A stretch of DNA of 64,000 nt from Amoebophrya sp. A120. Taxonomy: Eukaryota > Protista > Dinoflagellata. Position numbers and translations under genes: made by a program. The stretch spans positions 1,365,876-1,429,875 of the forward strand of contig CAJINV010000006.1 of NCBI GenBank assembly GCA_905178155.1, written 5' to 3'. Each line of letters begins with the position of its first letter. The first letter of the stretch is position 1. Below are positions 1 to 61,556 of this stretch, in pieces. The notes under the pieces were generated by a model, which searched no databases, had not been told where the DNA came from, and saw nothing but the letters and a program-made list of their open reading frames with translations.

Positions 1-3000
1 AGAACTCTACTGCAGGCGATGTTCAGAGCAGAGGAACCAACCAGGCCGCGACCATCCAGCCGGGGCGCTCCAACATTCTGCGGCACTTCTTCTCGGACGG
101 CAAAAGTAGTATTCCAAGCTCTGCTGGCGCGAAGACCACGTGGCAGGGGAAACTACTAACCAAAGCGGGTACAACTTCGACCACAAACATGAGTGGCGAT
201 AGTACAAGTCACTTCGCGTCCTCTCTGTTACGAGAACCAACCCGACCGTCTTCAATAAACTCTGGCCCAGGAGGGCAAATCCAATTCGTGAACAACGAGG
301 AATTTGTCCACCCCGGATCAATATCAAATGTAAAAGTGTCTGGGTCTGGAAGGATGCAAACTTGTGATGCTGTCTTTGGATTCTAAAGAAAAATGTATTG
401 CATGACCAGCAAGAGGAATCCAGTTTGTACTACGTGGGGAAGACATTTCTCATGCGCAACAGGCATCAGGAAGTCCTCTAAAAATCTGTGATGCTGGACC
501 ATGCATTACAGGCATCAGGGGTCATGCAAAATATGCATGACAAGCCTCTCACTCTTCCAGACCCAGACATTTTTGCACTCGATAATCAAGAGGCCAGAAG
601 GTCGAATTTCTCGAGCAGGAGCATATGAATTTTCCGGCGTATCAAATGTAAAAATGTCTGGATCTGGAAGGTTGGAACTTGTGATGCTAACTTTGGACTC
701 TAAAAAAATCTGTATTGCATGACCAGCAATAGGAGCCCAGTTTGTGCTACGCGGGGAGGCAATTTGTCATGCGGGATAGGCATCAGGAAGGCCTCTAAAA
801 ATATGTGATGCCAGATCATGCATTACAGACATCCTGAGTCATGTAGAATATGCATGACAAACCTGGCAACCTTCCAGACCCAGACATTTTTGCATTTGAT
901 ACGGCCCAACAAGAAATAACAAGACAAAACTTTCGCACCAGGCCCCCCACGACCACATACGGAGTAGTTCATCCGCCCACGAACAAGTCTATTATGCACC
1001 ACCGCTGCTCCCTCGCCGCCCTCGTGTACGGCCTGGGGCAGCAGATGCGGCAACAAAATTCCGGTCCCGGGGCCGGCACGGTGGTTGGCGTCGGCGACTA
1101 CTTGGCGCTAGATGCGGAGGAACGGCGGGGCATCTGGTTGCGGTCGCAGACCATGAGCGACGCGGAGCTATCAACTGCAAAAATGTCTGGGTCTGGAAGA
1201 TTCCTACATTTGTCATGCGTGTCTGACATGACTCAAGAAACTGTGATGCATGGACCCGAAGCGGTCCTCTTACCTGTCATGCAAAAACGCAGTTTGCCAT
1301 GCGGAACACGCAACAGATAGGAGCCCAAAAAATTTGTCATGCTCTGCTCCGTATTGCAGTGGAACCCTCATTGTTCACTTTTAGCATTACAAGTTTCCAG
1401 AGGACCCAGACATATTTGCAATGCATAGAAGCGGGCGCAGTACGAAAGTTACGGCGACGGCGGGTTAATCCAAAGGATTAAACCCTTGTTATCGAACCAA
1501 TTGTTAATTCTGTCTCTCCGCGCTCTGTGCCAGTTCCGGGTCCCGCTGTTCATCTCCAACATCGTGCTGGCGACGGTGGCGGGAATGCTGACCGGGATTT
1601 TCACGGGCGGGGGGGAGGAGCTGTTCTACACGCCCTGGCCAACGATGATGATTGGCCCGGTGCTACCCTGTGTAAAAACGTCCCCAACCCAGAGTTGTCA
1701 TGCAAATCTGCATGCTCAAAATGTTTGTCATGCGGAACCCCATGCGAAGCATTTTGTGGCTGTGTTTTGGAATTTGTAATGCGCCATTTTTTTAGCATGA
1801 TATACTAGATCTGTGATGCTGCTGAACTACCTCCAACAGCACTACACTGCCACTCCAAATTTGTCATGCAAAACAACCAAAACTCGTGGACTTCTCTAGC
1901 TGAATCCCCATCTTGACGTATGGGGTGGGGACGTTTTTTCATAGGATAGGTGCTGCTGTTTCAACTGTTAGTTTCCGCCGCCTCGCTGGAAGTCTTTTGC
2001 TACGAGAAAACGCCGGTCGCGCGGGAAATTCCGCAGATTTCAGCGTTAGCCTACGCGCTCGCCCGGATGGGGATCCCCTGTGTTCCGCTGCTGTGGAGCT
2101 ATATCCTGTGCAAAAACTATTGGGCCCACACGACTCCAGAGTTGTCATGCAGATTTGCAATTACAGGAAAACTTGCGAGCATGCGCTTCCCCATGAGAGG
2201 CATTTTTGTTTTTCAGCGTGTTTTGGCATTTGTCATTAAAGTTATGCTGATGTAAACAGCAGAAGAAGATATTAAAGATTGTGGCGCAGTTTTCCCTTTC
2301 CTTGAGCTAACCAGCACTACAATGCAGATGAGCGATGAAACTTGTCATGCGCGACTCCCAACTGGAGTTGGGGATTTGTGTTGCTGTTAATTTACCATCT
2401 TCACTCTGGGGTGCTGTGGGCCCCGTTTTTATTACACAGGATAAGCCACCCCTTCGCGTTTGCCTGCATGTATTGGGGCTTTGCGGTCTGTGACATCTTT
2501 GTCACGGACGCCATTCTTGTGTTTGCCGTCTTTTCGTACTACGTAACCGGCCTTGCCATGTGGATGACATTGTGCTTCGAAAACCACCAGATTGGGACCA
2601 TGATGGGCATTGTCTTCCCCGCGTTTTTGTCGGTCATGCTCGGCGGCACGGCCGGTTTACTCTACCCCGACATGACGCCCGCGTTACAAGCTGTCGCGTT
2701 CTTCGCCCCCTCCCGCTGGGCGACGATGAGTTGGATTATCGCAAGAAAAAACTGCTTCACTGTAAAGCTGTGATGCATAGAATGCAATACGGAAGTCTTT
2801 GTCTTGCTACACATACATGGCAACGGATTTTTAGGTTTGATGTTCCCTTAGGAGTCTCGCATGGCAAATTTTCTTTGTCATGTGGAGCAAACTTGTGATG
2901 CAAAAGTTGCAAAACCCTTCCAGTGAAACACTTTTTTCATACGATATGGATCGCCGCGAGTGTGAAGAATTTTCCGGCAAATTGGCAGCGGATTGCCCCC

Positions 3001-3851
3001 CTAACCGTCATATCAAACTGAAAAAAGCCCCCACGACCCCATACTCAAAAGACAACTTGTGTTGCTGGATTTGTGTACACAAATGAACTTTGTATTGCAG
3101 CGAGAGCTTTTCGGCGTATTGTAAACGCATTTGGGTACTACGCAGCCGGCTAGCAGCTGAGCATGAGAAAGAAGTCCGACATAGGCGAAAACGCATGACA
3201 GACTGGCTGTACAGTGCGCCACATGGGTGCCCTTTGCCTTGTGCGCAAGACAAAGCTGGTTTGTGGCCACAACTTAGCATCACAAATGTCCTTTTCGATA
3301 TGGGGAGGGGAGAGCTTTCCTCACAATACGTCATGCTGAAGGTTTATGGGTACGAGGAGGATTTTCAACACCGAACGCCCGAGGAAGTGTTTCACCGGAA
3401 CCTGTTGATTCAATTCTGCTATCGAATGCAAATATGACTGGGTCTCCTGGAAACTTGTGATGCAAGTCAGTGAACAATAAGTGCTCTGTAATGCGCCGCC
3501 ATGCATGACAAGTTTTTCCGTGCTTCTGTGCTGCGTATTTCGCATGAGAAACTTCTGCGCTTTTGCATGACAGGCAAGCGGGCCTCTTGGTGGCCATGCA
3601 ATACAGAGTGCAGAGTCATGCCAGACTAGCATGACAAATCTCGTCGGAACCTTCCAGGAGACCAAGACATGTTTGCAATCCATATCTGCCTCGGGACCGC
3701 GTGCCGAGTGTTCTGCTACTTGTGTCTACTGATGTTGAAGAACCAGGTAAACACGTTGCAGTGCTTGAAAATGGGCTGGAAATACGCAAAGCATTTGTTG
3801 ATCAGCGGCCACGTGCAAGCGGCCCGGCGGGCTAGCACGCCATCGATTTGA
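1..3851 (+). CDS. ABCG/ABC-2-type transporter, C-terminal part with membrane domain (5' end probably outside window), 8 introner introns
   Basis: Removing 8 elements plus one DR each gives an open frame of 473 codons from 189 to TGA 3851. Motifs QLLILSLRAL, EKTPVARE..SALAYALAR, six hydrophobic segments, PSRWA and RVFCYLCL resemble an ABCG TMD. Confidence 0.8.
322..584. mobile_element. Introner family F1 (TIR TATCAAATGCAAAAATGTCTGGGTCTGGAAG)
   Basis: TIR; DR ATCAA/ATCAA; removal restores frame. Confidence 0.9.
640..901. mobile_element. Introner F1
   Basis: TIR; DR CGGCG/CGGCC; frame restored. Confidence 0.9.
1169..1427. mobile_element. Introner F1
   Basis: TIR; DR GGAGC/GAAGC; frame restored. 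Confidence 0.88.
1664..1948. mobile_element. Introner family F3 (TIR TATCCTGTGTAAAAACGTCCCCA)
   Basis: TIR; DR GGTGC/GGTGC; frame restored. Confidence 0.9.
2102..2443. mobile_element. Introner F3-like
   Basis: TIR; DR AGCTA/AGCCA; frame restored. Confidence 0.85.
2737..2946. mobile_element. Introner family F4 (TIR TATCGCAAGAAAAAACTGYTTCACTG)
   Basis: TIR; DR TGGAT/TGGAT; frame restored. Confidence 0.9.
3011..3328. mobile_element. Introner family F5 (TIR with CCCCATAT/ACTCRAAA)
   Basis: TIR; DR CGTCA/CGTCA; frame restored. Confidence 0.88.
3420..3684. mobile_element. Introner F1
   Basis: TIR; DR TCTGC/TCTGC; frame restored. Confidence 0.9.
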
Positions 3852-9587: not shown

Positions 9588-12500
9588 ATGGTATACGAAA
9601 ATTTTAACGCTCCGCCTAAGCAGATGCACCCCACTCCTGTGCATCCCGGATCACCGGCGCAGCCCCAGCAGCCACTTTTTCATCCGGGCTATGGAAATCA
9701 TGTTGGGCCCTACGGGCCGCCGCCACCGCAACAGCACTACCCAGGGGCAGTTGCGCAACAGCGCCCAGCGTATCAACCGCAGCCGCCGCACCATCCCGTC
9801 GGGACAAACACGCAGTATGCAGGCCGGAGCATGATGGATATCAGTTTTCAACAGCAGTATTTTGGGCATCAACCTTCTGTAGTAGTTCACTCCGGTTACG
9901 GTCCCATAAAAAGCAACTATTCGTCAACATCGCTGCAACACCCAGTTGGAACCAACACGCAACCTCCGGGTCAGAGTATGATGGTCCCTGCCCCGGGAGG
10001 TGGTGCAGTACCAGTAGGAGTGCCTGCGCCACCACAGCCTGGAATATATCAACATCATGGCGGGTACTTCTTTCAACATCATCACAGTCTTGCCTGGCAA
10101 CATTCATCAGAAGTCCCACAAAATTATTGCCCAGGCGGGCCGACGACCCCGACGTCAACGTCGCAACCAGGAACGATACCGATTCAGGAAACGATACTGA
10201 CCCCACGAGGTGCACAAACAACATCAGGGGGACAAAAATCTACTGCACAACAAGGGGGCACAGGAACTACAGGAGCTACAGTCGGTGTCGGTCCACCAAC
10301 AGTGCCTAGTAGAAGTGCTGGTGAAGGCGCAGCAGCAGGACCAGCAGCACCCCCTCCGTCAAGTTCTTCGGCCAACAACCCCTTCGCGTTACCAAGCCGG
10401 TTCCCGCTGGTGCCACCGCCGGGTGAACTTGTAGATCAGGCAACAACTTCCAAGAAGAAACATGCTGCGAAGAGCAAGATCACCACTCCTGGACATGATC
10501 AACTATCGGGCAGTGGTAGGCGTAAGAGTACAAAAAAGGGTGGCGAGGACTCAACCTGTCAGACCCGGATTCGAACCTCCTCGACCTCCTCATCCGATTC
10601 TAGTAGCTCCTCATCAAGTTCCTCTTCCTCATCTTCCAGCTCTTCCAGCTCTTCATCGTCCAAGCAGAAAAAAACGGAAGATGTTGTTCCGGAAGCTGCC
10701 GTTCAGCGGTCTAATTTTCCGTCTCTCGCAGCAGCGAACCCGTTTTTAACGACTGATCCTGATCAAGAAGAGGAGAAGGAGCAGAGTGCCGAGAAGGACG
10801 CCGAAGGAATGAACGAGGAAAAGATCATCGACGCGCGTTCCTCGTCCACGTCAGCGGCCTCGGCTTCAGGAGCAGACGATGATACGACCAGTAAGAATTA
10901 TTGCAGAAGTGTGGGCAGCACGAAGTCGAAGAGTGCAGGAGCTCCTGGTGCTGGTGCAGAAATAACGAATCAAGAATCCGGTAATTTTTACCAGAAATTT
11001 TCTCTCACGACGACGTTAATGCCAACAAATGTTGACGAAGGTGGTGTTCTGCAAATGCCATTGCCAGCTTTGAATCTTATCCCGCCGGAGCAGGGACACC
11101 AGCCGCAGGCACAGCAGACACAACAACAGCCCGCATTTAGTTTACAACCTCCGTTAATACCGGGGGGAAAGGGGAGTTTCGGGTTTCATTTTTACCAGCA
11201 ACAGCAGAAACGGCTACAAGAGCAGCAGAACTCCAACAAGAATTTTCCGCTGCCCCAGCCGCCCGTCATAATTGGTCCACCACAGGAGACACACAATGCT
11301 CATCACTCTGCCACGATGCAGCAGCACAATATGCAGCAGCACGCCTTCTACTGGCCAGCAGCAGCACCATTCGTGGCCGCGGTGAGTCGCGGGGGCACGC
11401 ATCGCTGGAAGCAACAAACCGGGACGACGCATCGGGTGTTTGCTGATACGTCTGCGTTTGCGAAAGTAACACCGTATCAGCCCAGCATCCAGCACAATTT
11501 GCCCGCTGTGACGTTTGAGGACCTGCAAAATAATGAAGCTGCACAACCCAGTAATATCGCAAGAAAAAACTGTTTCACTGTGAACTTGTGATGCAGAAAC
11601 TGGAACACAGAACTCTCTGTCTTGCTACACCTGCAAGGCATTGGATTTTCAAGCGTGTTTTCCCTTGGGAAGCGCGCATGACAAATTTTCAGTGTCATGT
11701 GTAAGCAAACTTGTGATGCAGATCCTGCAAAGTCATCACAGTGAAGCAGTTTTTTCGTGGGATAAATAAAGTCGAACGCGTTCCGCGTCAGAGGGTTGAA
11801 CTCGTGCCACGAAGTGAAGTATCCTGTGCAAAAGTATCGTACTCGTATTGCAATCATGCATTACAAATTTTTTTCTCAAGGTAAAACAGCATTACAAATT
11901 TTATTTCTCATGCTGAGGGAATTTGTCATGCATTTATACGAATACGATACAATACTTTTGCAGTTCATATGAAGTTGTGGTCAACAACAACCCCAATCCA
12001 CCAATCCAACCACCGCCCATGCTAGCTTGTCCGGGCGCCGTCATTCAGCCACCTCCATTTGTCGCAATATCACGAAATAATGCGCTACCTGATCCGTTAC
12101 TCCAACCACCGGGTCTAAATAAGATGAATTCTGTGTCGACATTTTTGAAAAAGAATAAAAAAAAAAAGCTTGCGCTTGATGGAACTCACGTAGGTGCACA
12201 CGTCGTTTTTGTGTCGTCGGAAGACGATCAGCAGGAACAGAATCCAACTTTGATGCATCCGAGTACCGCTTCAACAACAAATCCCTCAACCGCTACTTCG
12301 TCCAACAAGCGAAAGCGGTGGGGGGAGATGAAAGTCGTGGACATTCTTTCGGACAACGACGGCCAGGATGAAGCAGACCGACGTCCTGGTCATGGTGAAG
12401 ATGCTGACCACCTATTACAAAAAGATCTCGCTCCTGCTGCATCAACTGCTGTAGCTACTAGTACCAAGAACGGCGGCTCCACCTCATCGCACCAAGCGTC

Positions 12501-15500
12501 GACCGCCGCAATAAACGCGAAAAAGAACAAAACCGGTATCAGGATTGACCGCCTATTGATCGAGTGCACGGCCTCGGACCCGGAGAATCCGCGATTTCTG
12601 GAATTTCCGGAGTTTCGGGAAATCGAAATTTCGTTCGACAGGGAAGAGAACACTACAACTGCGGCGGTACTAGTACAACTTACACCGCCAAATAAAAGCG
12701 GCGGTACTAGTACAACTTACACCCCGTTGCAGCTCTTGATTATCAAAAGAAAAAAGTTCGTCACGATCACTCATGGGCACTTTTGCAAGACAAAATTGTC
12801 CGTCATGCGTAAAAATGCATCACAGCCACACTTCATAAGGGATTTTTCTAGTGTTTGTGCAATGCAAGGAGAAGTTGTGATGCAAAAAAAATTTGTAATG
12901 CCAACCCTGCAACTTAGTGACTGTGACAAACTTTTTTCTCTCCATATTGATTCTCCAGAGTTTAGAAAAAAATATCTTCGCCGGCTATCCCACGAGGAGT
13001 CAAGCGCGGAAGATGGGGATCCACCTGCAGAAATTGAAAAAAAAGCAGAAGATATCAATTACAACTTCTGGAGGATCATGTGGAGAACAAGCTGCACAAG
13101 AGATTCTACCCGCAAGCTGCAACGATAACGAAGTAGAGCAACAACGTTTACAAGCTCTTCCGATCCTGACCACAAAGGAGAAGGAGATTTTCGAGAGTCT
13201 GACCATGATTTTCAAGGAAGACGAGATGAACAACAACATCTTCGCAACAAGTCGTGACCTAAGTAAAAGTTCCGTATCTGTTCTGCTGGACGATGAACAC
13301 GATTTTCATTCTTTCACGGAGCTGCCAGACGGGGGCACGAATGTTTTGCAAAATCCCTTCCGAACAACAGAAGGGACTACTATGAAACAAGAATCGGAAG
13401 TGGTAGTGCCGGACGCAGCAGGGACCGCAGAAGCATCAAAGCGGGGAAAAATAAATCACGAGCAGGACAAAATCAATATCCCAACTGCTGCAACGACAGA
13501 AAATGAAAATCTGAACGAAGGCAGCTCTCTCTGTGTAGTACCAACGAAGATCAACTTCTGGACTAACCAGCGAGCGCTGGAAGCATTTCTGAAAGAGCTT
13601 TCCTTCCGCCGAACGCAAGCGGTGGACCAGATGCGGACGAGAGCTAGTCAGAACGTGCAAACCACCGGAGACCGGAAAGTAGGAATTGAGAAGGTCAGCT
13701 TGTGGGACATTGGTAAAAACCGAGGCATATGCTGTGCAAAAGTATTGTACTCGTAATGCAATCATGCGTCACAAATCTTTTTCTTAAGGTCAATCAGCAT
13801 TACAAATTTTATTTCTCATGCTGAGGAAATTTGTAATGCATTTATACGAGTACGATACTTCGGCAATCCATAAGGCAATCGTGATGAGGACTTCTTGATG
13901 CAACACATCAAACAGGAAATGTCGCGGAATCCAAATTCCAATTGGGGAGCGGTCGTGATCCCGGATTTGAGCGAGTTGTGGCGAAACAAGTACCCCGGGC
14001 TGCTAATGGTGGGAAGAAGTGCTGACCACACGACAGAGACTCGAGGTGGTGAAAACAATCCCTTCGCGGACCACGTCGAAAGTTCTACCTCTTTGTCATT
14101 CGAAGAAACAGCGTCTACCCTTTTGGAACTGCAGCAAATTGGTTCTTCCACAACTGGCGCCATCAACCTCTTCGGCGGTGATTTTTCAACATCTTCCTTG
14201 CTCAACAAGCCGGATTTGACGCAACTAGATTTTCAAATCCGCAAATTGATCGGGGAATACGGACATTTGATCGAAAACCGACACGAGCACGTCACGGACG
14301 AACAAATCTTTGCCGCACTAAATCGCTGGTGGGACGAGGATTACGTCGATGTTAATAGCACAATAAAAACTACATCTACTTCTTCAGAAAAGGGTAAAAA
14401 GGATGTTGACCACGACATCGAAAGTGAAAATGTCGAAACTATTGACCGGGAACGCCAGTACTCGCAAAGAGGATACGACTGTCTGCAGATGCTGAAGGCG
14501 CACGAGGACTTGTGGGTGTACTTGTCATATGCATTGCAAAAGTACTATCGTGGTGCTACGTAAGAATTGAATGACAAATTTCCTCAGCATTAGAAATGAA
14601 ATTTGGGATGCGGATGTAGCTTGACACAACAATTTGTAATGCAAAAATGCCATTGCCATTAGTAAACGAGTGCGATACTTTTGCAATGCATATTTCAAAA
14701 GCGGAGAAATTGTGGAATAAAGTTCAGGAATTAAACATTCTGAAAAGGGAAATCACGATTATGCCCGAGTTTCCGAAAGAAATGAGGGATGACTACGTGG
14801 AGGAAGAGAGCCAAGATTTTTGTTTTGAGGAACAGGAAGACGGGGGAGGTGTAATTCTTGGCGACAGTATTCTTGCAAGCACTTCCAGCAGCATCGCAGG
14901 CGATACTAGCATGATCACCGGTGAAGAGCTAAATACAACAGGCCAGCAGGCCGAAGCGCACCAGGCCAGAGCGACAACCGACACAACCATGACCACAGAT
15001 AGTACTAAACCCGTTCGAGATAATGATAAGATCAAACTTTTCCCGCAACCGAACTCCAAGTACTCCCACTCCCAACGACTCCGGCAGAACCGCAGGGCCG
15101 CGAACAATATGCATTCAGCAAAAGCATCGTAATCGTACTTCTAATTGCAGATATGCATGACGAACCTCCTTCCTATAGTTGAAACAGCATCACAAATCAC
15201 ATTTGGCACGCTAGGGAGCTACAACTACTTTGTATTGCAGTTACTACACCTACTAGTTGTGCGATACTAACTTTTGCAATTCATAAACAAACGCCCCGAC
15301 GCGTACGAGTCCTTTGAATTGAAGGAGAAGCTCTACTACCCCATGCTCTGGGCAGCGCGCTGGAAAGACGCGGAAGTTACAGCGACGAAGAAATTTAAAA
15401 GAGATTTCAAACAAATCGAAGACTGTTTACTCCCGAGAAGGGACGGATTCGGCAACTGGACCATTTTCGGCCGGTCGCCGTTTTTTGAAAACACAACTAA

Positions 15501-16177
15501 CACGGTTGACGAAAGTGCTGAAGGATTTAAAGACCTAACGGAACAGCAACGCGCAAACCCGCCGATGAGCCACTGGTCGAGACAATTTCCGGTGTGGGTA
15601 CCCTGTGCAAAAGTATCGTACTCGTAGTAATTGCAGTCATGCACTGCAAGTCTTTTTATTAAGGTAAATCCGCATTACAAATTCCATATCTAATGCTGAG
15701 AAAATTTGTAATGCGATTCCATTATTACTAGTACGATGCTTTTGCATTTCATAGTGGGACGCTTTGCACAACTTTTCTTTCGAGCTGAACAAGTGGTGCT
15801 TCGTCCGGGGTGTGCATGTCTCCGATAACATCATGGAATTAACGAAATCTCTGTTGTGGTATGAGAGTGCACAATTCCCCCTCTCCCTCATTTGTATAGC
15901 ATGGACAGCAATATAAACACTAGCACACGTGGAGCCTACGCATGACAAATTTGCGCACCCAATGCAGTATTGTTTGGGCTTCCGGATGAATTTCTCATGC
16001 AAACAGTGCCACAAAACAGCGACTAGATATGGGATTTTGCATGGCAAATGAGGGTGACGGGGAGTTGTGCACTTTCACATGCGGCTGGGCGGGAAGAAGA
16101 CAAGGGACGCCTTTCAACAGATTCGGGATGAGAGAAAGAAAGTTTTAACCTTAACGGGAGGGAGGAAGAAAAAATAA
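9588..16177 (+). CDS. Large unknown protein (~1706 aa): Q/P/S-rich N-terminus, C-terminal domain shared with 17179-32350; 8 introners
   Basis: Removing 8 elements plus DR gives 5121 nt of open frame from ATG 9588 to TAA 16177. Confidence 0.8.
11555..11764. mobile_element. Introner F4
   Basis: TIR; DR AGTAA/AATAA. Confidence 0.88.
11820..11969. mobile_element. Introner family F2 (TIR TATCCTGTGCAAAAGTATCGTACTCGTA)
   Basis: TIR; DR TGAAG/TGAAG. Confidence 0.9.
12741..12946. mobile_element. Introner F4-like
   Basis: TIR; DR TTGAT/TTGAT. Confidence 0.87.
13728..13872. mobile_element. Introner F2
   Basis: TIR; DR AGGCA/AGGCA. Confidence 0.9.
14528..14692. mobile_element. Introner F2 (reverse orientation)
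   Basis: TIR; DR TGTCA/TTTCA. Confidence 0.87.
15108..15285. mobile_element. Introner F2
   Basis: TIR; DR AACAA/AACAA. Confidence 0.87.
15599..15753. mobile_element. Introner F2
   Basis: TIR; DR GTGGG/GTGGG. Confidence 0.9.
15860..16079. mobile_element. Introner family F6 (TIR TATGASAGTGCACAACTCCCCCTCCCCCTCATTTG)
   Basis: TIR; DR TGTGG/TGCGG; right end CACA. Confidence 0.85.
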
Positions 16178-44600: not shown

Positions 44601-46050
44601 CTGCAAACGGAGGAGCAGCTGCGTGCTTTTACCTTCTAGCAATACAGATCGATTTGTGGTCACAAATCAGCATCGCAAATTTTCTCTTCGATACGGGGAG
44701 GGGGGATTTTTCCTTTTGAGACCAGAAGTGCTGCCGCTGCTGCGACTGCGAACTACGCGTATTTGCAGTATTACTATCCTGTGCAAAAGTATCGTACTCG
44801 TACTGTAATTATGCATTACAAATTTTTTTCTCGAGGTAAATCCGCATTACAAATTTTATTTCCCATGCTGAGGGACTTTGTCATGCATTTATACGAGTAC
44901 GATTTACTTTTGCAGTTCATAATTACCCTCCGGTAGCACTAGAGCGGGAGCAACACCAGCAGGAGGCGGCATCGTATCAAATGCAATAAATATGTCTGGG
45001 TCATCTGGGAGAGTGCGACGAGGTCGAGGTTTGTCGTGCTAGTCCGGCATGACTCTGGACTCTGTATTGCGTGGCCGCAAACAAGAGCTCTTCTTGCTTG
45101 TCGTGCAAAAACGCAGTTTGTCATGCGGAGTACGCATGAACTCAGAACCACGAAAAAACTTGTCATGCTTGGCAGCGCATAATTACACCAGTGTGCTCGC
45201 TATTCCCTTCCTTGCATCACAAGTTTCCAGACATCCAGGGATATTTGCAATGCATACATCGCTACAAGAAACGATCGATCGGACGAGCACCACGGCGCAT
45301 GAAGCGTACCGGCAGATATCAAATGCAAATACGTCTGGGTCTGGAAGAATGCATGCTTGTCATGCTTGTCTGGCATGACTCTTGCTTCTGTCATGCACGT
45401 TACCCAAGGGTCGCATTTTTCTGTCATGCAGAAACGCAGTTTGTCATGCAGAACAGGCAATATTACCTAAAAGCTCAGAAACTTGTCATGCTGTTCAAGT
45501 ATTTGTGGCCCTCATGATACGCCACCCAGCATTACAAGTTTCCTGACCCAGACATATTTGCACTCAATAGCAGATTATGGTGGGCAAAAACGTCTCCACC
45601 CCAGAGTCAAGATGGGAAATCTCTGCAGCTGGCTGTTGCGCATGACAACTTTGGGTTCGCTATGTAATCGTCTTTCGCTAGTGCAGCAGCGTCACAGATC
45701 TAGCATAACATGGGGATTTGAACTTCACAAATCGCAAAACACCAGTAGAAATAACCGCTTCTCATGGGTCTGCGCATGAGAAACATCTTCAGCATGCAGA
45801 TTCGCATTACAACTCTGGGATGGGGACGTTTTCACAAATGATACAGATGGTGAATAAGTACTCGAAAGGTGGTATCCTGTGCAAAAGCATCGTACTCGTA
45901 TTGCAATCATGCATTACAAATTTTTTTCTCAAGGTAAATCCGCATTACAAATTTCATTTCTCATGCTGCAGGAATTTGTAATGCATTTATACGAGTACGA
46001 GACTTTTGCAGTTCATACGTGGGGATAGTGTTGTCTTGGGCAGAAGCTGA
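38657..46050 (+). CDS. Unknown ~748-aa protein with coiled-coil-like segments; 20 introners plus 2 probable GT-AG introns
   Basis: 2247 nt of open frame after removing the elements plus DR and introns 42267-42509 and 43594-43954. Confidence 0.7.
38855..39117. mobile_element. Introner F1
   Basis: TIR; DR GCGCG/GCGCG. Confidence 0.9.
39167..39432. mobile_element. Introner F1
   Basis: TIR; DR CTGAA/CTGAA. Confidence 0.9.
39584..39732. mobile_element. Introner F2
   Basis: TIR; DR GCTGC/GCTAC. Confidence 0.9.
39790..40052. mobile_element. Introner F1
   Basis: TIR; DR CTAAA/CTAAA. Confidence 0.9.
40110..40260. mobile_element. Introner F2
   Basis: TIR; DR CGCTT/CGCTT. Confidence 0.9.
40324..40478. 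mobile_element. Introner F2
   Basis: TIR; DR GAAGT/GAAGT. Confidence 0.9.
40565..40713. mobile_element. Introner F2
   Basis: TIR; DR TCCAA/TCCAA. Confidence 0.9.
41345..41476. mobile_element. Introner F2
   Basis: TIR; DR ATAGC/ATAGC. Confidence 0.9.
41521..41788. mobile_element. Introner F1
   Basis: TIR; DR TGGAC/TGGAA. Confidence 0.88.
41894..42199. mobile_element. Introner F7-like
   Basis: TIR; DR AGTCG/AGTCG. Confidence 0.88.
42267..42509 (+). other. Probable canonical GT-AG intron
   Basis: GTAATA...ACTAAAC...CCCAG; joins EKV|VATLGQL in frame. Confidence 0.55.
42797..43031. mobile_element. Introner F8
   Basis: TIR; DR AATGC/AATGC. Confidence 0.9.
43073..43217. mobile_element. Introner F2
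   Basis: TIR; DR GAGTT/GAGCT. Confidence 0.9.
43243..43529. mobile_element. Introner F6 with decayed DR
   Basis: TIR; flanks GATCA/ACACG; removing element+5 nt still restores the frame. Confidence 0.8.
43594..43954 (+). other. Probable GT-AG intron whose 5' half is a decayed F2 introner
   Basis: GTATAG...CTGCAG joins TIM|VALDS; F2-like sequence at 43595-43745. Confidence 0.55.
44114..44379. mobile_element. Introner F1
   Basis: TIR; DR GCAGT/GCAGT. Confidence 0.9.
44409..44721. mobile_element. Introner F5
   Basis: TIR; DR CCAGA/CCAGA; right end GAGA. Confidence 0.88.
44775..44921. mobile_element. Introner F2
   Basis: TIR; DR ATTAC/ATTAC. Confidence 0.9.
44975..45256. mobile_element. Introner F1
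   Basis: TIR; DR CATCG/CATCG. Confidence 0.88.
45317..45569. mobile_element. Introner F1
   Basis: TIR; DR GCAGA/GCAGA. Confidence 0.9.
45576..45843. mobile_element. Introner F3
   Basis: TIR; DR CAGAT/CAGAT overlapping the previous DR. Confidence 0.88.
45873..46017. mobile_element. Introner F2
   Basis: TIR; DR GGTGG/CGTGG. Confidence 0.9.
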
Positions 46051-46304: not shown

Positions 46305-48240
46305 TTCATTTTGAAAATGAGCAGTAGAGCAGCTAGAGAATTTACAATTAGAATTACACCGAAATTTTTAATAAGTGCGGCTAGAGAGGACGAACACGAA
46401 CAAGGTTGGCGACACCATCGATCTTCGGAACAACAACAATTTTATACTAGAAACAAAAAATGTATGATGCATGACGCGGACCACTCCTGGTCCTGACCAC
46501 ACTACTAGGCAAGAACTACGAGTTTTACTACCCACGTCGTGGAAAATTATGCAGAGACAGAAAACTGTGTAAGTGTAAATTTGTGTTGCAGAGAATGCAA
46601 GACACCTATCCTTGTCATGCTGGACATGCATCAGAGGTTCTTTCCATGTGTGTTTTCCCTTACAAGCCACGCATGGCAGGTTTGCTCAGTCATGTAGAAC
46701 AAATTTGTGATGCTGTCAGCCACAGACAGTTGCACTAGCGCAGTTTTTTCTTGGATAAAGAAGATGAGGATGAGTCTTTCAACGCAGAGATTGGAGAGGA
46801 GGACGAGCAGTTGGGGGAGATGAAAAACAGCCGCGCAACTACAAGAAATCGTGAACATCATGCTGGTGCAGCTTCTTATCAAGCTCGTCGTGGCGCTGCA
46901 AATGCGAACCAGCTGCTCCACCAGGTGAGCACCTCGGTGCACAAAAACTAACCTCGGTGCACAAAAACTCTCACCCCGGTCCTGACCACACTAGGCAAGA
47001 ACTACGAGTTTTACTATCCACGTCGTGGAACAAAATGCTGAATTCAACTATCGATAGCGCCTTGAGCTGGAAAATCAACAAAGTTTTCGCCTTTGTTTCC
47101 GGAAGTTGGTCCAGAAATGTTGAACACGAACAACTTCCAATTTTCAATTTGAAAATGAGTAGTAGAGCAGCTAGAGAATTTACAATTACAACACCGAAAT
47201 TTTTAATAAGTGCGGCTAGAGAGGACGAACACGAACAAGGTTGGCGACACCATCGATCTTCGGAACAATTTTCATTTTATACTAGAAACAATAAATGTAT
47301 GATGCATGACGCGGACCACTCCTGGTCCTGACCACACTACTAGGCAAGAACTACGAGTTTTACTACCCACGTAGCAGCTTGATGGCGTTGATAGTCAAGG
47401 CAATTTTGCATGACAAATCCTGTAACAGTTGAGAATGTAACAGTTGAGAGCGCCATAAATGCCAGGATGTCGGTGTTCGATCGGATGGCGAAAGAGTTTA
47501 TGAACTGCAAAAGTATCGTACTCGTATTCTTGCAAGCATGCATTGCAAATCTTTTTCTTCAGGTAAATAAGCATTGCAAATTTTATTTCTCATGCTGAGG
47601 AAATTTGTATAATGCATTTATACGAGTGCGATACTTTTGCAGAGCATAGAGCTAGACAAACCGCAGAAGATCGTATGAGAGTGCACAACTTCGACTTCCC
47701 CCTTGTTTGTCGTGCCACATACTTAAGTAAGTACCCCAAGGAAGCATTCTTTGCCCTTTCCCTTTGTCAGTGTTTGCATGACAGCATGTGGCAGCCGCCC
47801 AATAAAAATAGCACTGCAGGAGCACTACTTCTGGGTAAATTTGTCATTCAAAACCAGCACTCTTGCCGACGCTTGTATTTTTGCTGTTCATGCCCTACAA
47901 AAGAGGAGATAACTGGGGACGAGTTGTGCACAACTCTCATAACACGGGAAGTTTGTCGTGGAGAATTTAGTCGAGGAGCTACAGACCATGTGCGAGACGA
48001 TCATGGTATGCTCGTACTCAACATCGAAGTCATGCAAGACAAATCTTTGTTCTGAGCTAAATCAGCATAAGAAATTATTACATCCGCCAGGTCCTGACCA
48101 CACTAGGCAAGAACTACGAGTTTTACTACCCACGTCGTGGAAAATGCTGAATTCAACTATCGATAGCGCCTTGAGTTGGAAAATCAACAAAGTTTTCGCT
48201 TTTGTTTCCGGAAGGTGCTGGTCCGGAAATTGAAATGTTG
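46305..48240 (+). pseudogene. Mosaic of duplicated gene fragments
   Basis: 46760-46950 matches 54845-55043; 47373-48088 matches 42947-43678 (with introners 47499-47648 and 47674-47941); 46305-46545 matches 47145-47372; ~55-bp GGTCCTGACCACACTAGGCAAGAACTACGAG unit occurs 4 times. Confidence 0.7.
46548..46757. mobile_element. Introner F4-like in the mosaic region
   Basis: TIR similar to 55360-55569; flanking DRs do not match. Confidence 0.7.
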
Positions 48241-54545: not shown

Positions 54546-57413
54546 ATGAACGGCGCCATCGATAGCCATTGGATGGACTCCTTGCAAAACAACGTCGAAG
54601 AGCTTTACGAAACTGGTTTGACAGCGTTCGCGCGCCAATTCGCAGGAGGCAGTGACGATGATGTTGTTGATGGGAAACAAGAAAGGCGGTTGTATACTGG
54701 TGGAAGTGCCAGCACGACCTCCGAGCGGCTGCATGAGAGGAAACAAGAAGAACGGGGCGGAGGTATTATACCGGAGGGAGGCGGGGGAGGAAGAACCTCG
54801 CCCACCACAAAGATCCGCCCGGCGAGCTTCTACTACGTGAACGAAGAGGATGAGGATGAGTCTTTCAACGCAGAGATTGGAGAGGACGAGCAGCTAGGTG
54901 GGGAGAAAAACAAAAACAGCCGCGCAACTACAAGAAATCGTGAACATCATCATGCTGGTGCAGCTTCTTATCAAGCGCGTCGTGGCGCTGCAAATGGTGC
55001 GAACCAGCTTCTCCACCAGGTGAGCACCTCGGTGCACCAAAACTTCAAGTACGCGAGAAAAAATTTCAAGAGATTCGAGCACAACCACGTGCCCAACCTG
55101 CGGCCCGTGGTGAGTAGGCTGTGGACGGAAAATTTCTATGAACTGCAAAAGTATCGTACTCGTATAATGGCATTACAAATTTTCCCAGTATGAGAAATAA
55201 AATTTGTAATGCTGATTTACCTCAACAAAAAGATTTGTAATGCATGATTGCAATAGATACGAGTACGATACTTTTGCACAGGATAATTTCTTGCCTGTGG
55301 TGCAGCAGCTTGGAGAGTTGGCGACGAATACTAGGGGTGGGCGAGGAAACGCGACCACGTATCCAGGAAAAAAACTGTGTAAGTGTAAGTTTCTTGGAGG
55401 AATAGCATCACAAGTTTGCTCTGCATGACACAGAAAACCTGTCATGCGTACCTAGTACGTGAAAACACGCACGAAAATTGCCTCTGATGCATGTCCAGCA
55501 TGACAAGTTTAACAGTTTTGCATTTTCTGCAACACAAAGTGACACTTACACAGTTTTTTTCTTTTGATACCACGACGGACGGCTCCAGTAGAAGTTGTAC
55601 TCCTGGTCGTACGCAGCCGCAGGTGCCGCACAAGAGCACAAGTACAAGAAACAAAAGCAACAATATTAAACACCCTCAAATTATGAATGGCGTTGTGCAA
55701 CAAGAAGCGGACGACTTTTCAAAGCACCAGAATGTTGATGTCTTCAACGCTGCTAGTTGTAGTTCTTCTAGTACTTCGCCATCAAAGATATTAGAGAGCA
55801 GCCCGGGAAGTCATCTGCAGCAGCTCTATGGCGCTCTCAAACGTTCTTACATTCTCAACTGTTACATGAATTTGCGATGCAAGAGCCTTAACAGTCACAG
55901 GTGCAAGCTTGCTGCTATCGCATCACAGATTTGGCACGGACTTAGATTCTGTGTAGCTCTTCGGAGATTAGTCACGCGAAGCAGCTTGATCATCTACCGG
56001 TGCCGGCTCAAGGTCGTACTTTTGCACGACAAATTCATGCAAGAACTACAGTTGAGAGTGTAACGCTTGACCACGCCACAACCTCCCCACCTTCCGTATA
56101 GACCCTGGGGAAATTCCGATGCAGATGGAGAATTTTCGGGGTTTCGAGGTGCCCACCTTCCTTTCGAGCACAAGAACAACGAGTAGCAGAAAGCGGAACG
56201 AGAGGGCGCAAGATAACTTTCATTTCGATTTCAGCACAACCAGGAATGAAAATGAAATATTAAACTACGCAAGAACTAGAACTACTACTTCTACTGCTCC
56301 GCAGCACTATGTTTCGTCTCCGCAGGTGGCACACGACGGTGGGTTCGTGCACGACGAGCAGCACCTTGTGGCCCTACAGCACGATCGACGCGAGGCTGCT
56401 GGTTGTGGTCCACCTGGTGCGCAGTTGTTTTCGCGCACGAGTAAGGGAAGCAGCATTTTCTTGCGAGAGCAGGATCTAGATCAGGATATTGCAGCACACG
56501 AGGAGCGGCAGTTGCGGGGGACGATGTTGACATCAGCAAGAATGTCAAAGGATTACGAGATAAATCCGTTGTTCTCGCGGACCAGCTATGCATTGCAAAA
56601 GTATCGTACTAGTACTATAAATCGCATGACAAATTAGCCCAGCATGACAAACGGAATTTGTCATGCTGATTTGGCTTGGAAGCGAGATTTGTAATGCATG
56701 ACTGCGATTAGTACGACTACGAGTACGATACTTTTGCACAGGATACGAGCAAGGGAAGCTCGCTCGCGGAGGAGGTCCAAGAACTGTACAGCTACACGAG
56801 GACGTATGGGAGTGTCAGGTTTGAAATCGACAAAGTTGAAATAAAACTTGTAATGCATAAAATCGATAGCAGTTGGAAGCTGAATTTTCAATCGGCGCAT
56901 GACAAATTTGGGCCACGTCTAAATCCAGTTTGTCATGCTGTTTTGGGACAGAAGGCGTCTTTTGTCGTGCTACTTCAGCAGCTCTACCGCAGACCCCAAA
57001 CAGGCTGACAGTCGGCCTCACTTGCCGTCCCTGCAAGAGAGGCGCTTCATGCCTTGCAATTTTTGCATGACAAATTATTTCGGTGCCAGCCCTTACAGGT
57101 TGTGTAGTGGTTTCGGCAGGTTTAGCATGAGAAATTATTTCAACTTTGACGATTTCAATCCTGACGCCTCCATAGGACGTCGGGGGCTGGAGCCGCAGAC
57201 GGAGAGAACCCAAGTCTTGGTGCGCCGCCGATTCACTTCAACATCGCTTCTTCGGTCGACGAAGAAGTCGTGTGCAACCACGAGCAAAAAGAAAAACCGA
57301 AAAGACTTGGCCGTCCGGCCGCGGAAGTTGATGCTGAGGCTGTTGTAGATCTTGGCGGTGAAGAACAAGAATCTTCCAGTAAAGATTCCTCCTGGTTGAA
57401 ATTGAAAATGTAA
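54546..57413 (+). CDS. Unknown ~566-aa low-complexity protein; 5 introners
   Basis: 1701 nt of open frame after removing the elements plus DR. Confidence 0.72.
55137..55285. mobile_element. Introner F2 (reverse orientation)
   Basis: TIR; DR ATTTC/ATTTC. Confidence 0.9.
55360..55569. mobile_element. Introner F4-like
   Basis: TIR; DR CCACG/CCACG. Confidence 0.9.
55827..56080. mobile_element. Introner F8
   Basis: TIR; DR AGCTC/ACCTC; right end CACA. Confidence 0.85.
56587..56745. mobile_element. Introner F2 (reverse orientation)
   Basis: TIR; DR CCAGC/CGAGC. Confidence 0.9.
56805..57174. mobile_element. Introner F7
   Basis: TIR; DR GGACG/GGACG. Confidence 0.9.
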
Positions 57414-58640
57414 GTTAAAGTTTGAATCAAAAGATTTTTCCAGATTCCTGATCCGAAAGAGAAGAGGTAGAGGAACAGCAGCTCTTTTGGATTGCCTAGT
57501 TGAACTACTTTCTTGGTTCGCGGCTCTGCGAAGTTGTTCTTGCAACACCTCCACCACGCGGAGAAAAAACAAAAAGTAAAACAGAAAATAATGCAAACCT
57601 CTGCAGCTGCAAGTAGATGTAGAACTTGTTCATGCGCAAAGTAGTAGCTAGCCATGTTAGATTCAAATGAGCCCGTTGTGGTGCTCGTGCCCCTAGCCCT
57701 AGCTTCAATGATTTTTCTTTTGTACCACCTGCTTGCTAAAAACGCTAAGTAATACGCTTTAGCATACGTTTTTGTTCGACACGGCCGGTGTGAAGATTTT
57801 TTCATCTAAAAAAACGCAGATCATCCATCTTCGCACTATAGTCCACCTGATTTTCATGATGAACGACCAGGATCCCTTGCTACTCCTGCTCCCAAAATTA
57901 TCGTATGGACTAAGAAAGCAACGCCGATCCAGTTCAAGTTCAAGTTCAAGACTCGGTAAAAAAAATGTGAAGATCCCGAGGAGTGAATAAGCATTTAGCC
58001 ATCCTGTGAACAACAACTCCTAAGTACTCTATCGCGTCGTGCAAGCTCCGGATGAAGATTCGGTGCTAGTTGTATCTGTAGGTGTAGTGCATGGTTACAA
58101 GAAAAAAAAAAATGTGAAAGTAGATCCACTCCAGAGAGGACGAAAAAGATCCAGAGCAAATCAAAATTGCGAAAAAGAAGAGCATCTCCAATAAGCGGAT
58201 CAAAAGTCGCGAAGATACTATCAAAAGTTGTCGGTTGCACCGGTTAGAATTTATTTTGAGCTAAAACGCATCTTATTGCTATGCTCCGCTTACATTTGAG
58301 ATAGCAGAAGCATCCTCTTCCTCTTGGAACCAGCAGCAGTTCCTCTTTAGGAAAATCTATAAACAACTCGCAACCCACTTCTCTGGTCTGCTAAAACTTT
58401 CCACCTCTACAACAACTTCTCCTTCTGTTACATGTGCTTTTGAGTACAAACAACATCTATACAAAACAATCCTCGCAAGCATCAGCTAAACGTAAAAGTA
58501 GACGTATAATACTTGTTCATACTTGTTCTTACCTGCTGTTTTTTTGTTTGAGCCTATATTCTCTCTACTCGATCGGTCGAGCTTCTAGCTAAGGACGAAT
58601 TAGTTGGAGAAGTGTTTGTTCTCGATACTGCTATTGAAAA

Positions 58641-61556
58641 ATGACTTTTGCAAAGTCTCTCGTCGCTGGGGCTGCTAGCCTCGTAATGCAGCGCGCATTG
58701 CTTCTCGTTGCCATGGATAATTATGTTGCTAGTCCGGCTGGTGCTGGGCTGATTGTCCCGGCGCACGCGGCTCTCGTTGGCGGCCGGAGTGCTGGAAGAA
58801 AGCTCACAAATCGGGCTATGTCACGGGCCGAGGTATCCGCAAGTTCTGGATCTCCGCCGGCCCAGGTAGTGCCGGACACGAGCACCACCAGCTTTCGTTC
58901 CCTAAACGCACTGAATCGACGAGATGCCCCTGGAGCAAGCAAATCGTCCGGGTTGGTGCGTCGATCTCCGCTGGGAAGCGCCTCGGCGCCCGGCCGCGCT
59001 CGTCAAAGTACCATTATGGGCGGAGCACGTGGTAGTTTTTTACCACCTATTAAAGAAGATGATTTGTACGAGGACCAACTCGACACTAGTCCCTTCGCAG
59101 GAGGTCCGGGAACAACCGTCGAGGAGGAGTATGGATTGCAAATATGTCTGGGTCTGGATGGATGCGCGATTTGTCATGCAGCTTTTCCGTGCCCCATGGG
59201 GTCTGGAATGCAGGACCTAGCATGACAGAGTCTGCGAGGTCTCTGCCATGCCTATCCCGCATGAGAAACTTCCTCCCAACTTGGTCGAAAGTGGACAGCT
59301 TTTGGCACTCATGCAACACAGATTTTTGCATTATTCGGATTTAGCATGACAAGTTTTAATCTACTTCCAGACCCAGACACTTTTGCACTTGATAAGGAGC
59401 GTCCTGTTGCAACTCGTCCGGGACGAGAGGATTATATCGGAGCTGCTCGGGGGCCCCTATCAAATGCAAATATCGATCTGGGTCTGGAAGGATCCAAGGT
59501 TTCTTGTCATGCACATTTTGCATGACTCCTGATCGATCTGTGATGCATGCCCTAGCATCACAGATCATTTTATGAGGGCTTCCTGGTGATGCCTATAGAT
59601 TTAGATACCGCGTAACAAATTCCCTTTCCGTGTAGCAAAAATTGCACTCTCTTTGCTGCTCATGCAATGCAGATTTTTTTAGAATCCAAATGCAGCATCA
59701 CAAGTTCCAACTTTCCAGACGCAGACATTTTTGCAATCCATAGCCCCCTTGCCCCAGCAACTCCTCGGCTCCTTCTTCTACAACGGGAAGCCAATCGCCC
59801 GGGCTGTTGATGCCTCGATCTTCTCCGCCGGGGGCCCAGGTGCAGCCGGGGGCCCCGAGCACCAGTGCCGCGTCGTCCGACCGCGGGGCAAAATCCCCCC
59901 AGTTCCTCCGCAACCAAGACTTGCTCAAGGGCCACCTCCCCAGCCAAGACTTGGAACAGGCTCGGCAAATCTTGGTTGAGTGTCGGGAACTATCGCGGGA
60001 AAATCAATTGCATTTGCAATTCCGCCCTCAAGACTTGGTCGAGCTTCGGGAAATCTTGGTCAAGAAAAGGGAATCAATTCCCCAAGAAGATTATCAAATG
60101 CAAAAATGTCTGGGTCTGGAAACTTGTGATGCTGGGTGTCGTCTCATGATGAGGCCACAAATGCTGGCTCGGCATGACAAGTCTCTCAGCTTCTAGGTGT
60201 TGCCTATCCTGCATGACAAACTGCGTTTCTGCATCGCAGAAAAATGGAGCTCTTGGGTAACGTGCATGACAGATTTGAGAGTCATCATGCCAGACAAGCA
60301 TGACAAACATGCACTCTTCCAGACCCAGACATTTTTACATTTGATAAAGATTCTCAGCCGGCGCAGATATTCCGTGTAAAAACGTTCCCACGACCTCCCT
60401 AGAGTCAAGATGGGACGAAGAAAGCTGCTACGTACACAAATCAACAAGATGAAGATTTGCATTTGGCTTTTGCACGTAACAAGTTGGATGGGCTCGCAGT
60501 GTAGTAATGCTCGATTTATTAGCTGGTACTACAGCAGTTGCAGTATCGCAAAAAACCTCTTTCGAGCATCGCAAATTTTTCCAAAACAGGACTTAGAAAA
60601 TGCTTCTCATGGGGCCCCGCATGAGAAACGTTTTCAGCACGCAGCTTCGCATGACAACTCTGGTGATGTGGGAACGTTTTTCCTCTTGATAGCAGATGGT
60701 TGACCTACCGGAACGTCCTCCCTTCCGTTTCCCCGGTGAGGGCGACAATGTGGGCAAGAACGCCATTTTATCCTCAGCAAAAAAGTCTTCACTTCATAGC
60801 CAAGATGGGAAATCTGCTAGACAAATCAGCCAGGTCTGGTTGTTGCGCGTGACAGGTTTGGTCTCGTAGTGTAGTCCTCTTTAGCTTGTTCAGCGGCGTC
60901 ACAGATCCAGCACATTATGCTGGTTGGAGCGCTGCAAATCCAAACTCCAAAGCACCACCACAAGAAAATACGTCTCATGGGACTCCGCATAAGAAAGATT
61001 TTGAGCACGCAAAATTGCATGACAGCTATGGGATGGGGACGTTTTTACATAGGATACATTTGCGGCAGTCGTGCAAAAGCACTTATCGCTCCAAAGGAAC
61101 CAAAGCATCCAAAAGGGATAAAGGCCCCGATGGATATCGGCTACTTGGGAACGCTCAATGGTAGCACGGTTTCCCTTGCCTACCAAAAACAAGGAGCTGT
61201 ATGCATTGCAAATATCTCTGGATCATGTCTGGAAGGATGCAAACTTGTGTATGCAGATTCTGGAACAGGCAAAAATCTGTGTTACACGGTCAGTAAAAGG
61301 CGGGCGATTTTTGTCTCAGGGCGAGAGTATTTCTCGATCTCCATCTCGTGCAGTAGAGAACTACGCACCATGAAAAAGCCTCCTGCCATGACTTTGTCAT
61401 GCTCTGCGGGCACTCCAGGTGGCCTCTTTGCAGATGCAAAAGCTGCGTGACATCTCTCCCAGACGACCCAGAGGACATGTTTGCATTTGATAACATGTCC
61501 CGGTCACCAACTGGTTTGCACGGGGGCGCCCTGCCAATATCTTTCGACGTGACTGA
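58641..61556 (+). CDS. Unknown ~391-aa protein with hydrophobic N-terminus; 6 introners
   Basis: 1176 nt of open frame after removing the elements plus DR. Confidence 0.68.
59130..59394. mobile_element. Introner F1
   Basis: TIR; DR AGGAG/AGGAG. Confidence 0.9.
59458..59742. mobile_element. Introner F1
   Basis: TIR; DR GCCCC/GCCCC. Confidence 0.9.
60092..60346. mobile_element. Introner F1
   Basis: TIR; DR AAGAT/AAGAT. Confidence 0.9.
60368..60691. mobile_element. Introner F3
   Basis: TIR; DR GCAGA/GCAGA. Confidence 0.88.
60769..61056. mobile_element. Introner F3
   Basis: TIR; DR CATTT/CATTT. Confidence 0.88.
61200..61492. mobile_element. Introner F1 (diverged)
   Basis: TIR; DR AGCTG/ACATG. 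Confidence 0.78.

What the first reader, a model, noticed from the sequence alone, without database searches (positions are those of the whole stretch)
322..61492. Genes are interrupted by ~78 MITE-like introns removed by a non-GT-AG rule (TA...TA ends, TIR, 5-bp DR)
Seen: every long gene is interrupted by elements with TIRs, TA(T)...(A)TA ends and a 5-bp direct repeat. 59 of 78 DRs are perfect, 16 have one mismatch and 3 have more. Removing element plus one DR restores an uninterrupted frame in all seven genes, including 22 consecutive junctions in a 3249-aa gene. Most junctions cannot be read as GT-AG. Established: invasive non-canonical introners with inverted and direct repeats are known from Amoebophrya; I am not aware that their excision mechanism has been resolved. 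Inference: precise excision is guided by the TIR stem and DR, either by an unusual RNA splicing pathway or by IES-like DNA excision.
Basis: partly seen in the sequence, partly recalled or inferred. Interest (0 to 1): 0.85.

Follow-up and report, generated by a model that had tools for sequence, protein, structure and literature searches.

The report
Transposon introns cut at fixed register
Seven genes of a protist, likely the marine parasite Amoebophrya, are split by dozens of small transposon-derived inserts that are missing from transcript-like assemblies although they lack normal intron ends; this intron class is already published, but here the cut falls one base before and four bases after the insert wherever it could be placed, which likely reflects a spliceosome that has relaxed its GT-AG rule.

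Summary
Observation confirmed: 81 elements (TAT...ATA ends, terminal inverted repeats, 5-bp direct repeat; 59 perfect, 17 one mismatch, 5 more); 79 sit in seven + strand genes whose frames open on removing element plus 5 bases. They match the published Amoebophrya A120 introner elements (PMC7789003), so the class is already known; the scan also noted similar introns in other genomes. Added here: transcript-like contigs skip exactly element+5 at 22 of 42 elements in the laid stretches (tables capped), a DNA-like run shows none of these joints, and mismatched repeats place the cut after base 4 of the repeat: intron = N-TAT...ATA-NNNN. Removal stays exact where the direct repeat is 3-4/5 mismatched, so the repeat is not the guide. 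Intron +2 U and +3 A are invariant (81/81), and in 266 outside copies end variants follow gene direction (14/17 as predicted, p about 0.01). Best reading: RNA splicing by a relaxed U2-type spliceosome using an N-U-A donor and a position-set acceptor; machinery untested. IES-like DNA excision is not supported.

The parts
322..3684 (+). Gene 1 (3-3848, 534 aa, 5' end off window): 8 elements at 322-584, 640-901, 1169-1427, 1664-1948, 2102-2443, 2737-2946, 3011-3328, 3420-3684
11555..16079 (+). Gene 2 (9471-16174, 1745 aa stop to stop): 8 elements at 11555, 11820, 12741, 13728, 14528, 15108, 15599, 15860
18417..32276 (+). Gene 3 (17128-32347, 3266 aa stop to stop): 22 elements from 18417-18738 to 32121-32276
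   Evidence: a 7622-nt contig of X3 covers 23605-28050 in 3232 nt, exactly the length with 6 elements removed
33693..37440 (+). Gene 4 (33532-37480, 346 aa): 10 elements plus one GT-AG intron (35663-36105)
   Evidence: all 10 element joints and the GT-AG intron seen in X3 at depth 570-660; frame
34120..34329 (+). Decayed element removed as a GT..AC intron (TAT at +2..+4, ATA at -7..-5; DR CGATG/TCACG; no family match, no end-to-end stem predicted)
   Evidence: joint 34119>34330 in X3; folding and blast
35034..35256 (+). Element with DR mismatch at position 3; upstream copy kept
   Evidence: joint 35031>35260, both=2
38855..46017 (+). Gene 5 (38657-46115, 748 aa): 20 elements plus GT-AG introns 42267-42509 and 43594-43954
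   Evidence: joints for 41345, 41521, 41894, 42797, 43073, 43243 and intron 42267
41521..41788 (+). Element with DR mismatch at position 5 (TGGAC/TGGAA); downstream copy kept, so the cut is at or before base 4
   Evidence: joint 41515>41789, both=4, in X3, X4 and X6
43073..43217 (+). Element with DR mismatch at position 4 (GAGTT/GAGCT); upstream copy kept, so the cut is at or after base 4
   Evidence: X4 record 43072>43533 with the intervening exon letters (table 5c)
43243..43529 (+). Element with a 4/5-mismatched DR (GATCA/ACACG); upstream bases 1-3 and downstream base 5 kept
   Evidence: same X4 record; coordinates
47499..47941 (+). Two elements (47499-47648, 47674-47941) in a duplicated fragment of gene 5
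   Evidence: an X6 contig and an X3 loose end carry this copy's letters, spliced
55137..57174 (+). Gene 6 (54522-57410, 574 aa): 5 elements at 55137, 55360, 55827, 56587, 56805
59130..61492 (+). Gene 7 (58638-61553, 392 aa): 6 elements at 59130, 59458, 60092, 60368, 60769, 61200

Best explanation
These are MITE-derived inserts with 5-bp target-site duplications that are absent from transcript-like contigs at a fixed register (one base before the 5' TAT, four bases after the 3' ATA), and they are likely removed from pre-mRNA by a relaxed U2-type spliceosome. Shown: the element plus 5 bases is skipped; the upstream repeat supplies bases 1-4 and the downstream repeat base 5 at every informative site; the intron reads N-TAT...ATA-NNNN. 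Inferred: the element's terminal TAT supplies U+2 and A+3 of a spliceosomal donor with G+1 no longer needed; the 3' splice site is set by distance from the terminal ATA instead of by AG, with A-7 a candidate branch point or docking base; the TIR hairpin helps juxtapose the ends but is not always required; the direct repeat only makes a new insertion scarless.
For: Joints equal element+5 in all 15 cases checked. Cut range: k>=4 from 43073 (X4), its paralog 47499 (X6) and 34121 (X3); k<=4 from 41521 (X3, X4, X6) and 43243 (X4); 24664, 27082, 35034 agree. In that register +2 T 81/81, +3 A 81/81, -7 A 81/81, while +1, -2, -1 are free. Family members are inserted in both orientations and spliced in both, yet end variants are polar: in the window 0 at +2/+3 and 4 at -6/-5, 3 at +4 and 0 at -7 (Fisher p 0.029, post hoc); tested on 266 copies from 140 outside loci, 14 of 17 end variants lay on the predicted gene strand (p about 0.01), and +2 T was 235/235 in copies with a confident strand. 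All nine top A120 classes in Table S4 of PMC7789003 have T at +2, and all nine A25 classes begin TT with IRs starting TTA. The same genes hold GT-AG introns with GTAT/GTAA donors, one of them a relic of the commonest family. Precedent: U2 spliceosome needed for MITE-derived non-canonical introns in Fritillaria (PMC13326754 Introduction).
Against: No test of the machinery: no lariat, branch or snRNP data. The register rests on few sites (two independent elements for k<=4; one bona fide element, its paralog and one decayed element for k>=4), all on + strand genes, from contigs that show only majority forms; X3, X4, X6 are RNA by guess and X1 has no kind on record. 3 of 17 outside variants went against the prediction, one with a strong strand call (L080, -7 A to C), so A-7 is not absolute (233/235); the strand caller is a codon model checked only in-sample (79/81). 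A-7 is very close to the 3' end for a branch point and is predicted to be paired in the hairpin (TAT:ATA pair probability >0.5 in 50 of 80). [quoted passage not shown] Table S4 classes may partly reflect aligner preference. Euglenid hairpin introns with fixed spacing are excised as circles by unknown machinery (PMC11282704).
Confidence: 0.6

Rival explanations
1. RNA-level removal at the same register but by a non-spliceosomal structure-guided endonuclease plus ligase (tRNA-splicing or IRE1/RtcB-like), as suspected for euglenid nonconventional introns: the hairpin is cut in a staggered way, 1 base 5' and 4 bases 3' of the stem.
For: Inner TIR stem predicted in 68 of 80 elements; 3-bp terminal helix next to a poorly paired 4-base stretch (self-match 78-80/81 at TIR positions 1-3, 29-47/81 at 4-7); no G+1 or AG preference (AG at the registered end 13/235); U1 not detected; euglenid signature also uses fixed spacers (PMC12501133 abstract).
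Against: 34121 is removed exactly with no predicted end-to-end stem; the most constrained bases are U+2 and A+3, the positions of a spliceosomal donor; wobble or mismatch at -6/-5 is tolerated; a relic of the main family is spliced as a GT-AG intron.
Confidence: 0.27
2. IES-like precise DNA excision in a somatic copy or life stage, transcripts being made from the element-free DNA.
For: TA-bounded ends with TIRs resemble ciliate TA-IESs (recalled); contigs drop rare variants, and only one DNA-like run was laid.
Against: X1 covers introns and elements at even depth about 40-48, spans exon-element borders and has 0 at every displayed spliced joint; variants are polar with transcription although elements lie in both orientations; both TAs are removed rather than one kept; GT-AG introns are missing from the same contigs.
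Confidence: 0.04
3. The joints are reverse-transcriptase template-switch artefacts at hairpins flanked by direct repeats, or the cut position is in fact variable within the repeat.
For: Hairpin plus DR is the known substrate for RT skipping (recalled); PMC7789003 Fig. 3 legend calls the splice sites variable relative to the hairpin.
Against: Retention shortens the frame in 73 of 79 cases, so removal must occur in vivo; exact removal where the DR is largely lost (34121, 43243); the same register at all informative sites; ordinary GT-AG introns are removed in the same contigs.
Confidence: 0.09

Closest known systems
Introner elements (IEs) among the non-canonical introns of Amoebophrya sp. A120 (Farhat et al. 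2021, PMC7789003)
   Same: IRs starting TAT, seven variable bases, then AAA; 3-5 nt DRs at the borders (5-bp example in Fig. S19 legend); repeated families; about 240 nt; RNA-supported non-GT-AG ends; co-oriented, poorly annotated genes. Almost certainly the same elements.
   Different: The text I read leaves the border open (Fig. [quoted passage not shown] Here one register (N-TAT...ATA-NNNN), dispensability of the DR and strand-polar end constraint are found. I could not see the figures, whose logos may show part of this.
Non-canonical MITE-derived introns of Fritillaria borealis (PMC13326754; review PMC11282704)
   Same: TIR/TSD transposon origin, non-GT-AG ends, coexistence with canonical introns, no minor spliceosome.
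   Different: Fixed AG-AC/AG-AT ends and U1 conserved there; here first and last bases are free and the fixed bases are +2, +3 and -7.
Euglenid nonconventional introns (PMC12501133; PMC11282704)
   Same: Ends paired by short inverted motifs at fixed spacing from the cut, TSD-like repeats, free terminal bases.
   Different: Signature N3CDG...CH'GN5-6|R versus N-TAT...ATA-N4; excised as circles in euglenids, unknown here.
Introners of Aureococcus and Micromonas; MITEs
   Same: Non-autonomous TIR elements whose TSD gives scarless removal.
   Different: Those carry or co-opt canonical splice sites (as described in PMC7789003 Discussion); these do not.

Membership tests
Amoebophrya A120 introner elements | 8-20 nt inverted repeats at intron ends | tested here: met
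   median 16 of the first 20 bases self-complementary
Amoebophrya A120 introner elements | IR begins TAT, seven variable bases, at least three As | tested here: met
   TAT in 78/81 left ends; A at IR positions 11-13 in 62, 67, 68 of 78; definition
Amoebophrya A120 introner elements | 3-5 nt direct repeat overlapping the borders | tested here: met
   5-bp DR, 76/81 with at most one mismatch
Amoebophrya A120 introner elements | Repeated in families; removed from RNA at non-GT-AG sites | tested here: met
   families of 28, 20, 8, 4, 4, 3, 2, 2 plus 10 singletons; joints; 0/81 GT-AG in register
Amoebophrya A120 introner elements | Located in the A120 genome itself | not testable with these tools
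   no genome held; organism names are coded; identity inferred from the signature only
MITE (non-autonomous TIR DNA transposon) | TIRs, TSD, short, many copies, either orientation | tested here: met
MITE (non-autonomous TIR DNA transposon) | Cognate autonomous element / transposase | not tested
   not searched; PMC12130899 describes TIR-flanked A120 introners with Copia/Gypsy-like ORFs (passages)
U2-type spliceosomal intron | GT (GC) donor and AG acceptor | tested here: not met
   0/81 GT-AG in register; 3/235 in outside copies
U2-type spliceosomal intron | Donor U+2 (and purine +3) | tested here: met
   81/81 and 81/81; 235/235 and 234/235
U2-type spliceosomal intron | Branch adenosine, lariat, snRNP dependence | not testable with these tools
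   A-7 conserved (81/81; 233/235) is only a candidate
Euglenid nonconventional intron | N3CDG...CH'GN5-6|R signature | tested here: not met
   end matrices versus abstract
Euglenid nonconventional intron | Excision as full-length circle | not testable with these tools
   no raw reads covering the genes
Ciliate TA-IES (DNA excision) | Joined form exists as DNA; one TA retained | tested here: not met
   0 joined forms in DNA-like X1 among displayed joints (rare variants not visible); both TAs removed
Fritillaria non-canonical introns | AG-AC / AG-AT ends | tested here: not met
   dinucleotide classes

The most novel reading that the evidence does not exclude
The apparent diversity of Amoebophrya splice sites hides one code: N-U-A at the donor and a 3' cut counted four bases past a terminal AUA, with A-7 as branch point, read by a U1-less spliceosome that ignores both G+1 and the 3' AG. 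It would cover fresh introners, decayed 'singleton' non-canonical introns and, through the shared U+2/A+3, the TTA introns of strain A25.
Probability: 0.35. Interest if true: 0.85.

Novelty: already known. Interest (0 to 1): 0.5.

Why it matters
The elements are published, but how tens of thousands of introns without GT-AG ends are removed in Amoebophrya is open. A single register turns the question into direct tests: re-anchoring all A120 junctions, looking for lariats at A-7, and mutating U+2, A+3, A-7 and the spacer. If a spliceosome does this, it works without the G+1/G-1 docking thought to be near universal, and explains why any TAT-ended MITE can land in any exon, either way round, without harm. 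The rule also allows correct gene annotation in these genomes.

Tried and rejected
No whole genome is held. No RNA holder was listed on record as RNA. Raw RNA runs X9-X11 laid 324, 6 and 1 reads, nearly all partial matches to element ends, and told nothing about these genes. A search for annotated full-length proteins with one exon of gene 5 found nothing, so annotated proteins could not be used to read the mismatches. Frame alone cannot place the cut: all six registers keep the frames open. Pfam on 9 exon translations gave only two sub-threshold hits. Rfam: 0 matches. Viral contigs: 0 matches to the main TIR. Both lays capped the joint table at 15 rows (42 and 8 more not shown), so 20 of 42 elements in the laid stretches are neither confirmed nor contradicted, and mismatches at 640, 1169, 2102, 11555, 14528, 15860, 25831, 32121, 39584, 45873, 55827, 56587, 61200 were not read. 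Rejected: the idea that the GT-AG intron at 43594 starts at the element's terminal TAT; it starts at element position 15. Earlier-findings search by place was empty.
Full report
Observation. A scan for TA...TA segments with terminal inverted repeats and flanking repeats, completed by hand and by a search that did not require the first three bases, gives 81 elements, 129-1009 bp, 19,071 bp in all. Direct repeats of 5 bp are perfect in 59, have one mismatch in 17 and two or more in 5. A strict version of the rule finds 66 in the window and 0-4 in each of 20 Markov controls. Removing element plus 5 bases opens seven frames, all on the + strand (534, 1745, 3266, 346, 748, 574, 392 aa; 8, 8, 22, 10, 20, 5, 6 elements); two further elements lie in a duplicated fragment. 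Removed lengths are 3n in only 28 of 81. The elements fall into families of 28, 20, 8, 4, 4, 3, 2, 2 and 10 singletons, at most 91% identical, inserted in both orientations.

What it is. Farhat et al. 2021 (PMC7789003; I read the abstract, passages, sections 11, 12 and 16, and passages and Table S4 rows of the supplement; figures not seen) describe A120 introner elements with IRs starting TAT, seven variable bases and at least three As, and 3-5 nt DRs. The window's ends fit this. The organism is inferred from that signature; no genome is held. The class is therefore already known. The scan's own notes list similar hairpin-bounded introns in other genomes (unchecked).

RNA evidence. Contigs of X3, X4 and X6 (RNA by the tool's guess; they lack GT-AG introns too) were laid on 22401-42300 and 40714-43600. 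Of the 42 elements in these stretches, 16 appear as joints and 6 more through a contig whose length matches the spliced form exactly (3232 nt); the tables were capped, so the other 20 were not displayed. All 15 joints checked skip element+5. X1, of unrecorded kind, covers introns and elements evenly at depth about 40-48, has records spanning exon-element borders, and shows depth 0 at every displayed spliced joint; contigs cannot show rare variants.

Where the cut lies. With k the number of bases kept from the upstream repeat: 24664 gives k>=1, 35034 and 27082 k>=3, 43073, its paralog 47499 and 34121 k>=4; 41521 (three runs) and 43243 give k<=4. Only k=4 fits all: the intron is N-TAT...ATA-NNNN. 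In this register +2 T, +3 A and -7 A are each 81/81, +1, -2 and -1 are free, 38 dinucleotide classes occur and none is GT-AG. Elements 34121 and 43243 have lost most of the repeat and are still removed exactly, so the DR is a relic of insertion and not the guide. 34121 also has no family match and no predicted end-to-end stem, yet keeps TAT at +2 and ATA at -7.

Polarity. A symmetric DNA-level process should constrain both ends alike. In the window, deviations fall at +4 (3) and at -6/-5 (4), never at +2, +3 or -7 (Fisher p 0.029, noticed after the fact). Gene strand was called by a codon model (79/81 right in-sample; 236 of 266 called with margin). Of 17 copies with a variant end, 14 lay on the predicted strand (one with a weak margin) and 3 did not (L021 and L074 weak calls, L080 strong); p about 0.01. 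In 235 oriented copies +2 T was 235, +3 A 234, -7 A 233, -6 T 231, -5 A 230. Copies with DR below 4/5 were excluded by the detection rule. Table S4 of PMC7789003 agrees: nine of nine top A120 classes have T at +2, nine of nine A25 classes begin TT, though aligner preference may contribute.

Mechanism. Shown: removal at RNA level is the only reading that fits both run types; fixed register; DR dispensable; polar constraint. Inferred: the terminal TAT gives U+2/A+3 of a spliceosomal donor (the window's three GT-AG introns start GTAT, GTAA, GTAT; one is a relic of the largest family, 77% identical over 103 bp), and the acceptor is set by distance from ATA. The hairpin (inner stem predicted in 68 of 80) probably helps. 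A U2-type spliceosome handles MITE-derived non-canonical introns in Fritillaria (PMC13326754, abstract and Introduction read), which supports this reading (0.6). An endonuclease-ligase route like that suspected for euglenids (PMC12501133 abstract; PMC11282704 section 6) remains a serious rival (0.27). RT artefact or variable cut 0.09; DNA excision 0.04. The insertion enzyme was not sought; PMC12130899 (passages) reports TIR-flanked A120 introners with Copia/Gypsy-like ORFs, and integrase-type enzymes make 5-bp duplications (recalled).

Novelty. Six paper searches found no later work resolving the A120 splice register or excision product; PMC12005148 and PMC11453091 (passages) repeat the 2021 description. 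Subscription papers such as Roy et al. 2023 and Henriet et al. 2019 were not read, bioRxiv supplements are closed, and the logos of Farhat Fig. 3 and S19-S25, which I could not see, may already show part of the register. Verdict: already known class, with a sharper and testable splicing rule resting on a few informative junctions. Interest 0.5.

Noticed in passing
window 45570-45575: Elements 45317 and 45576 are 6 bases apart; in the k=4 register the exon between them is a single base (45574), and the 748-aa frame needs it. Not covered by reads.
   Followed up: partly
window 28056-29064: A 1009-bp member of the 150-bp family with a GC-rich, internally repetitive insert of about 850 bp; X3 holds variant copies of the insert.
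   Followed up: no
window 43594-43954: GT-AG intron that is a truncated relic of the largest element family, donor inside the former TIR; splicing seen as loose ends in X4 and X6.
   Followed up: partly
window 46270-48240: Rearranged, duplicated segment with a copy of gene 5 exons (43032-43670), solo element ends at 46757 and 47457; spliced contigs carry this copy's letters.
   Followed up: partly
window 52361 and 62459-62618: Element relics outside the seven genes: a solo left end, and a copy starting CAT without a direct repeat.
   Followed up: no
all elements, TIR positions 4-7: Poor self-complementarity (29-47 of 81) between well paired positions 1-3 and 8-20, giving a 3-bp cap over an internal loop.
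   Followed up: partly
DR position 4 (intron -1): T is scarce: 6 of 81 (p 0.004 uncorrected); 33 of 235 in outside copies against 42-51 at other positions.
   Followed up: partly
window 42086 (X9 loose end): 65 raw RNA reads start inside a copy of the 41894 family with letters resembling a template-switch adaptor (recalled), suggesting a transcript 5' end within a copy elsewhere.
   Followed up: no
window 7833-9404 (-), 50200-51900 (+): A 524-codon minus-strand frame without elements, and two tandem similar ORFs; no Pfam match.
   Followed up: no
L080:1598-1850: Outside copy on a confidently called minus-strand gene with C instead of A at -7, an exception to the rule.
   Followed up: partly
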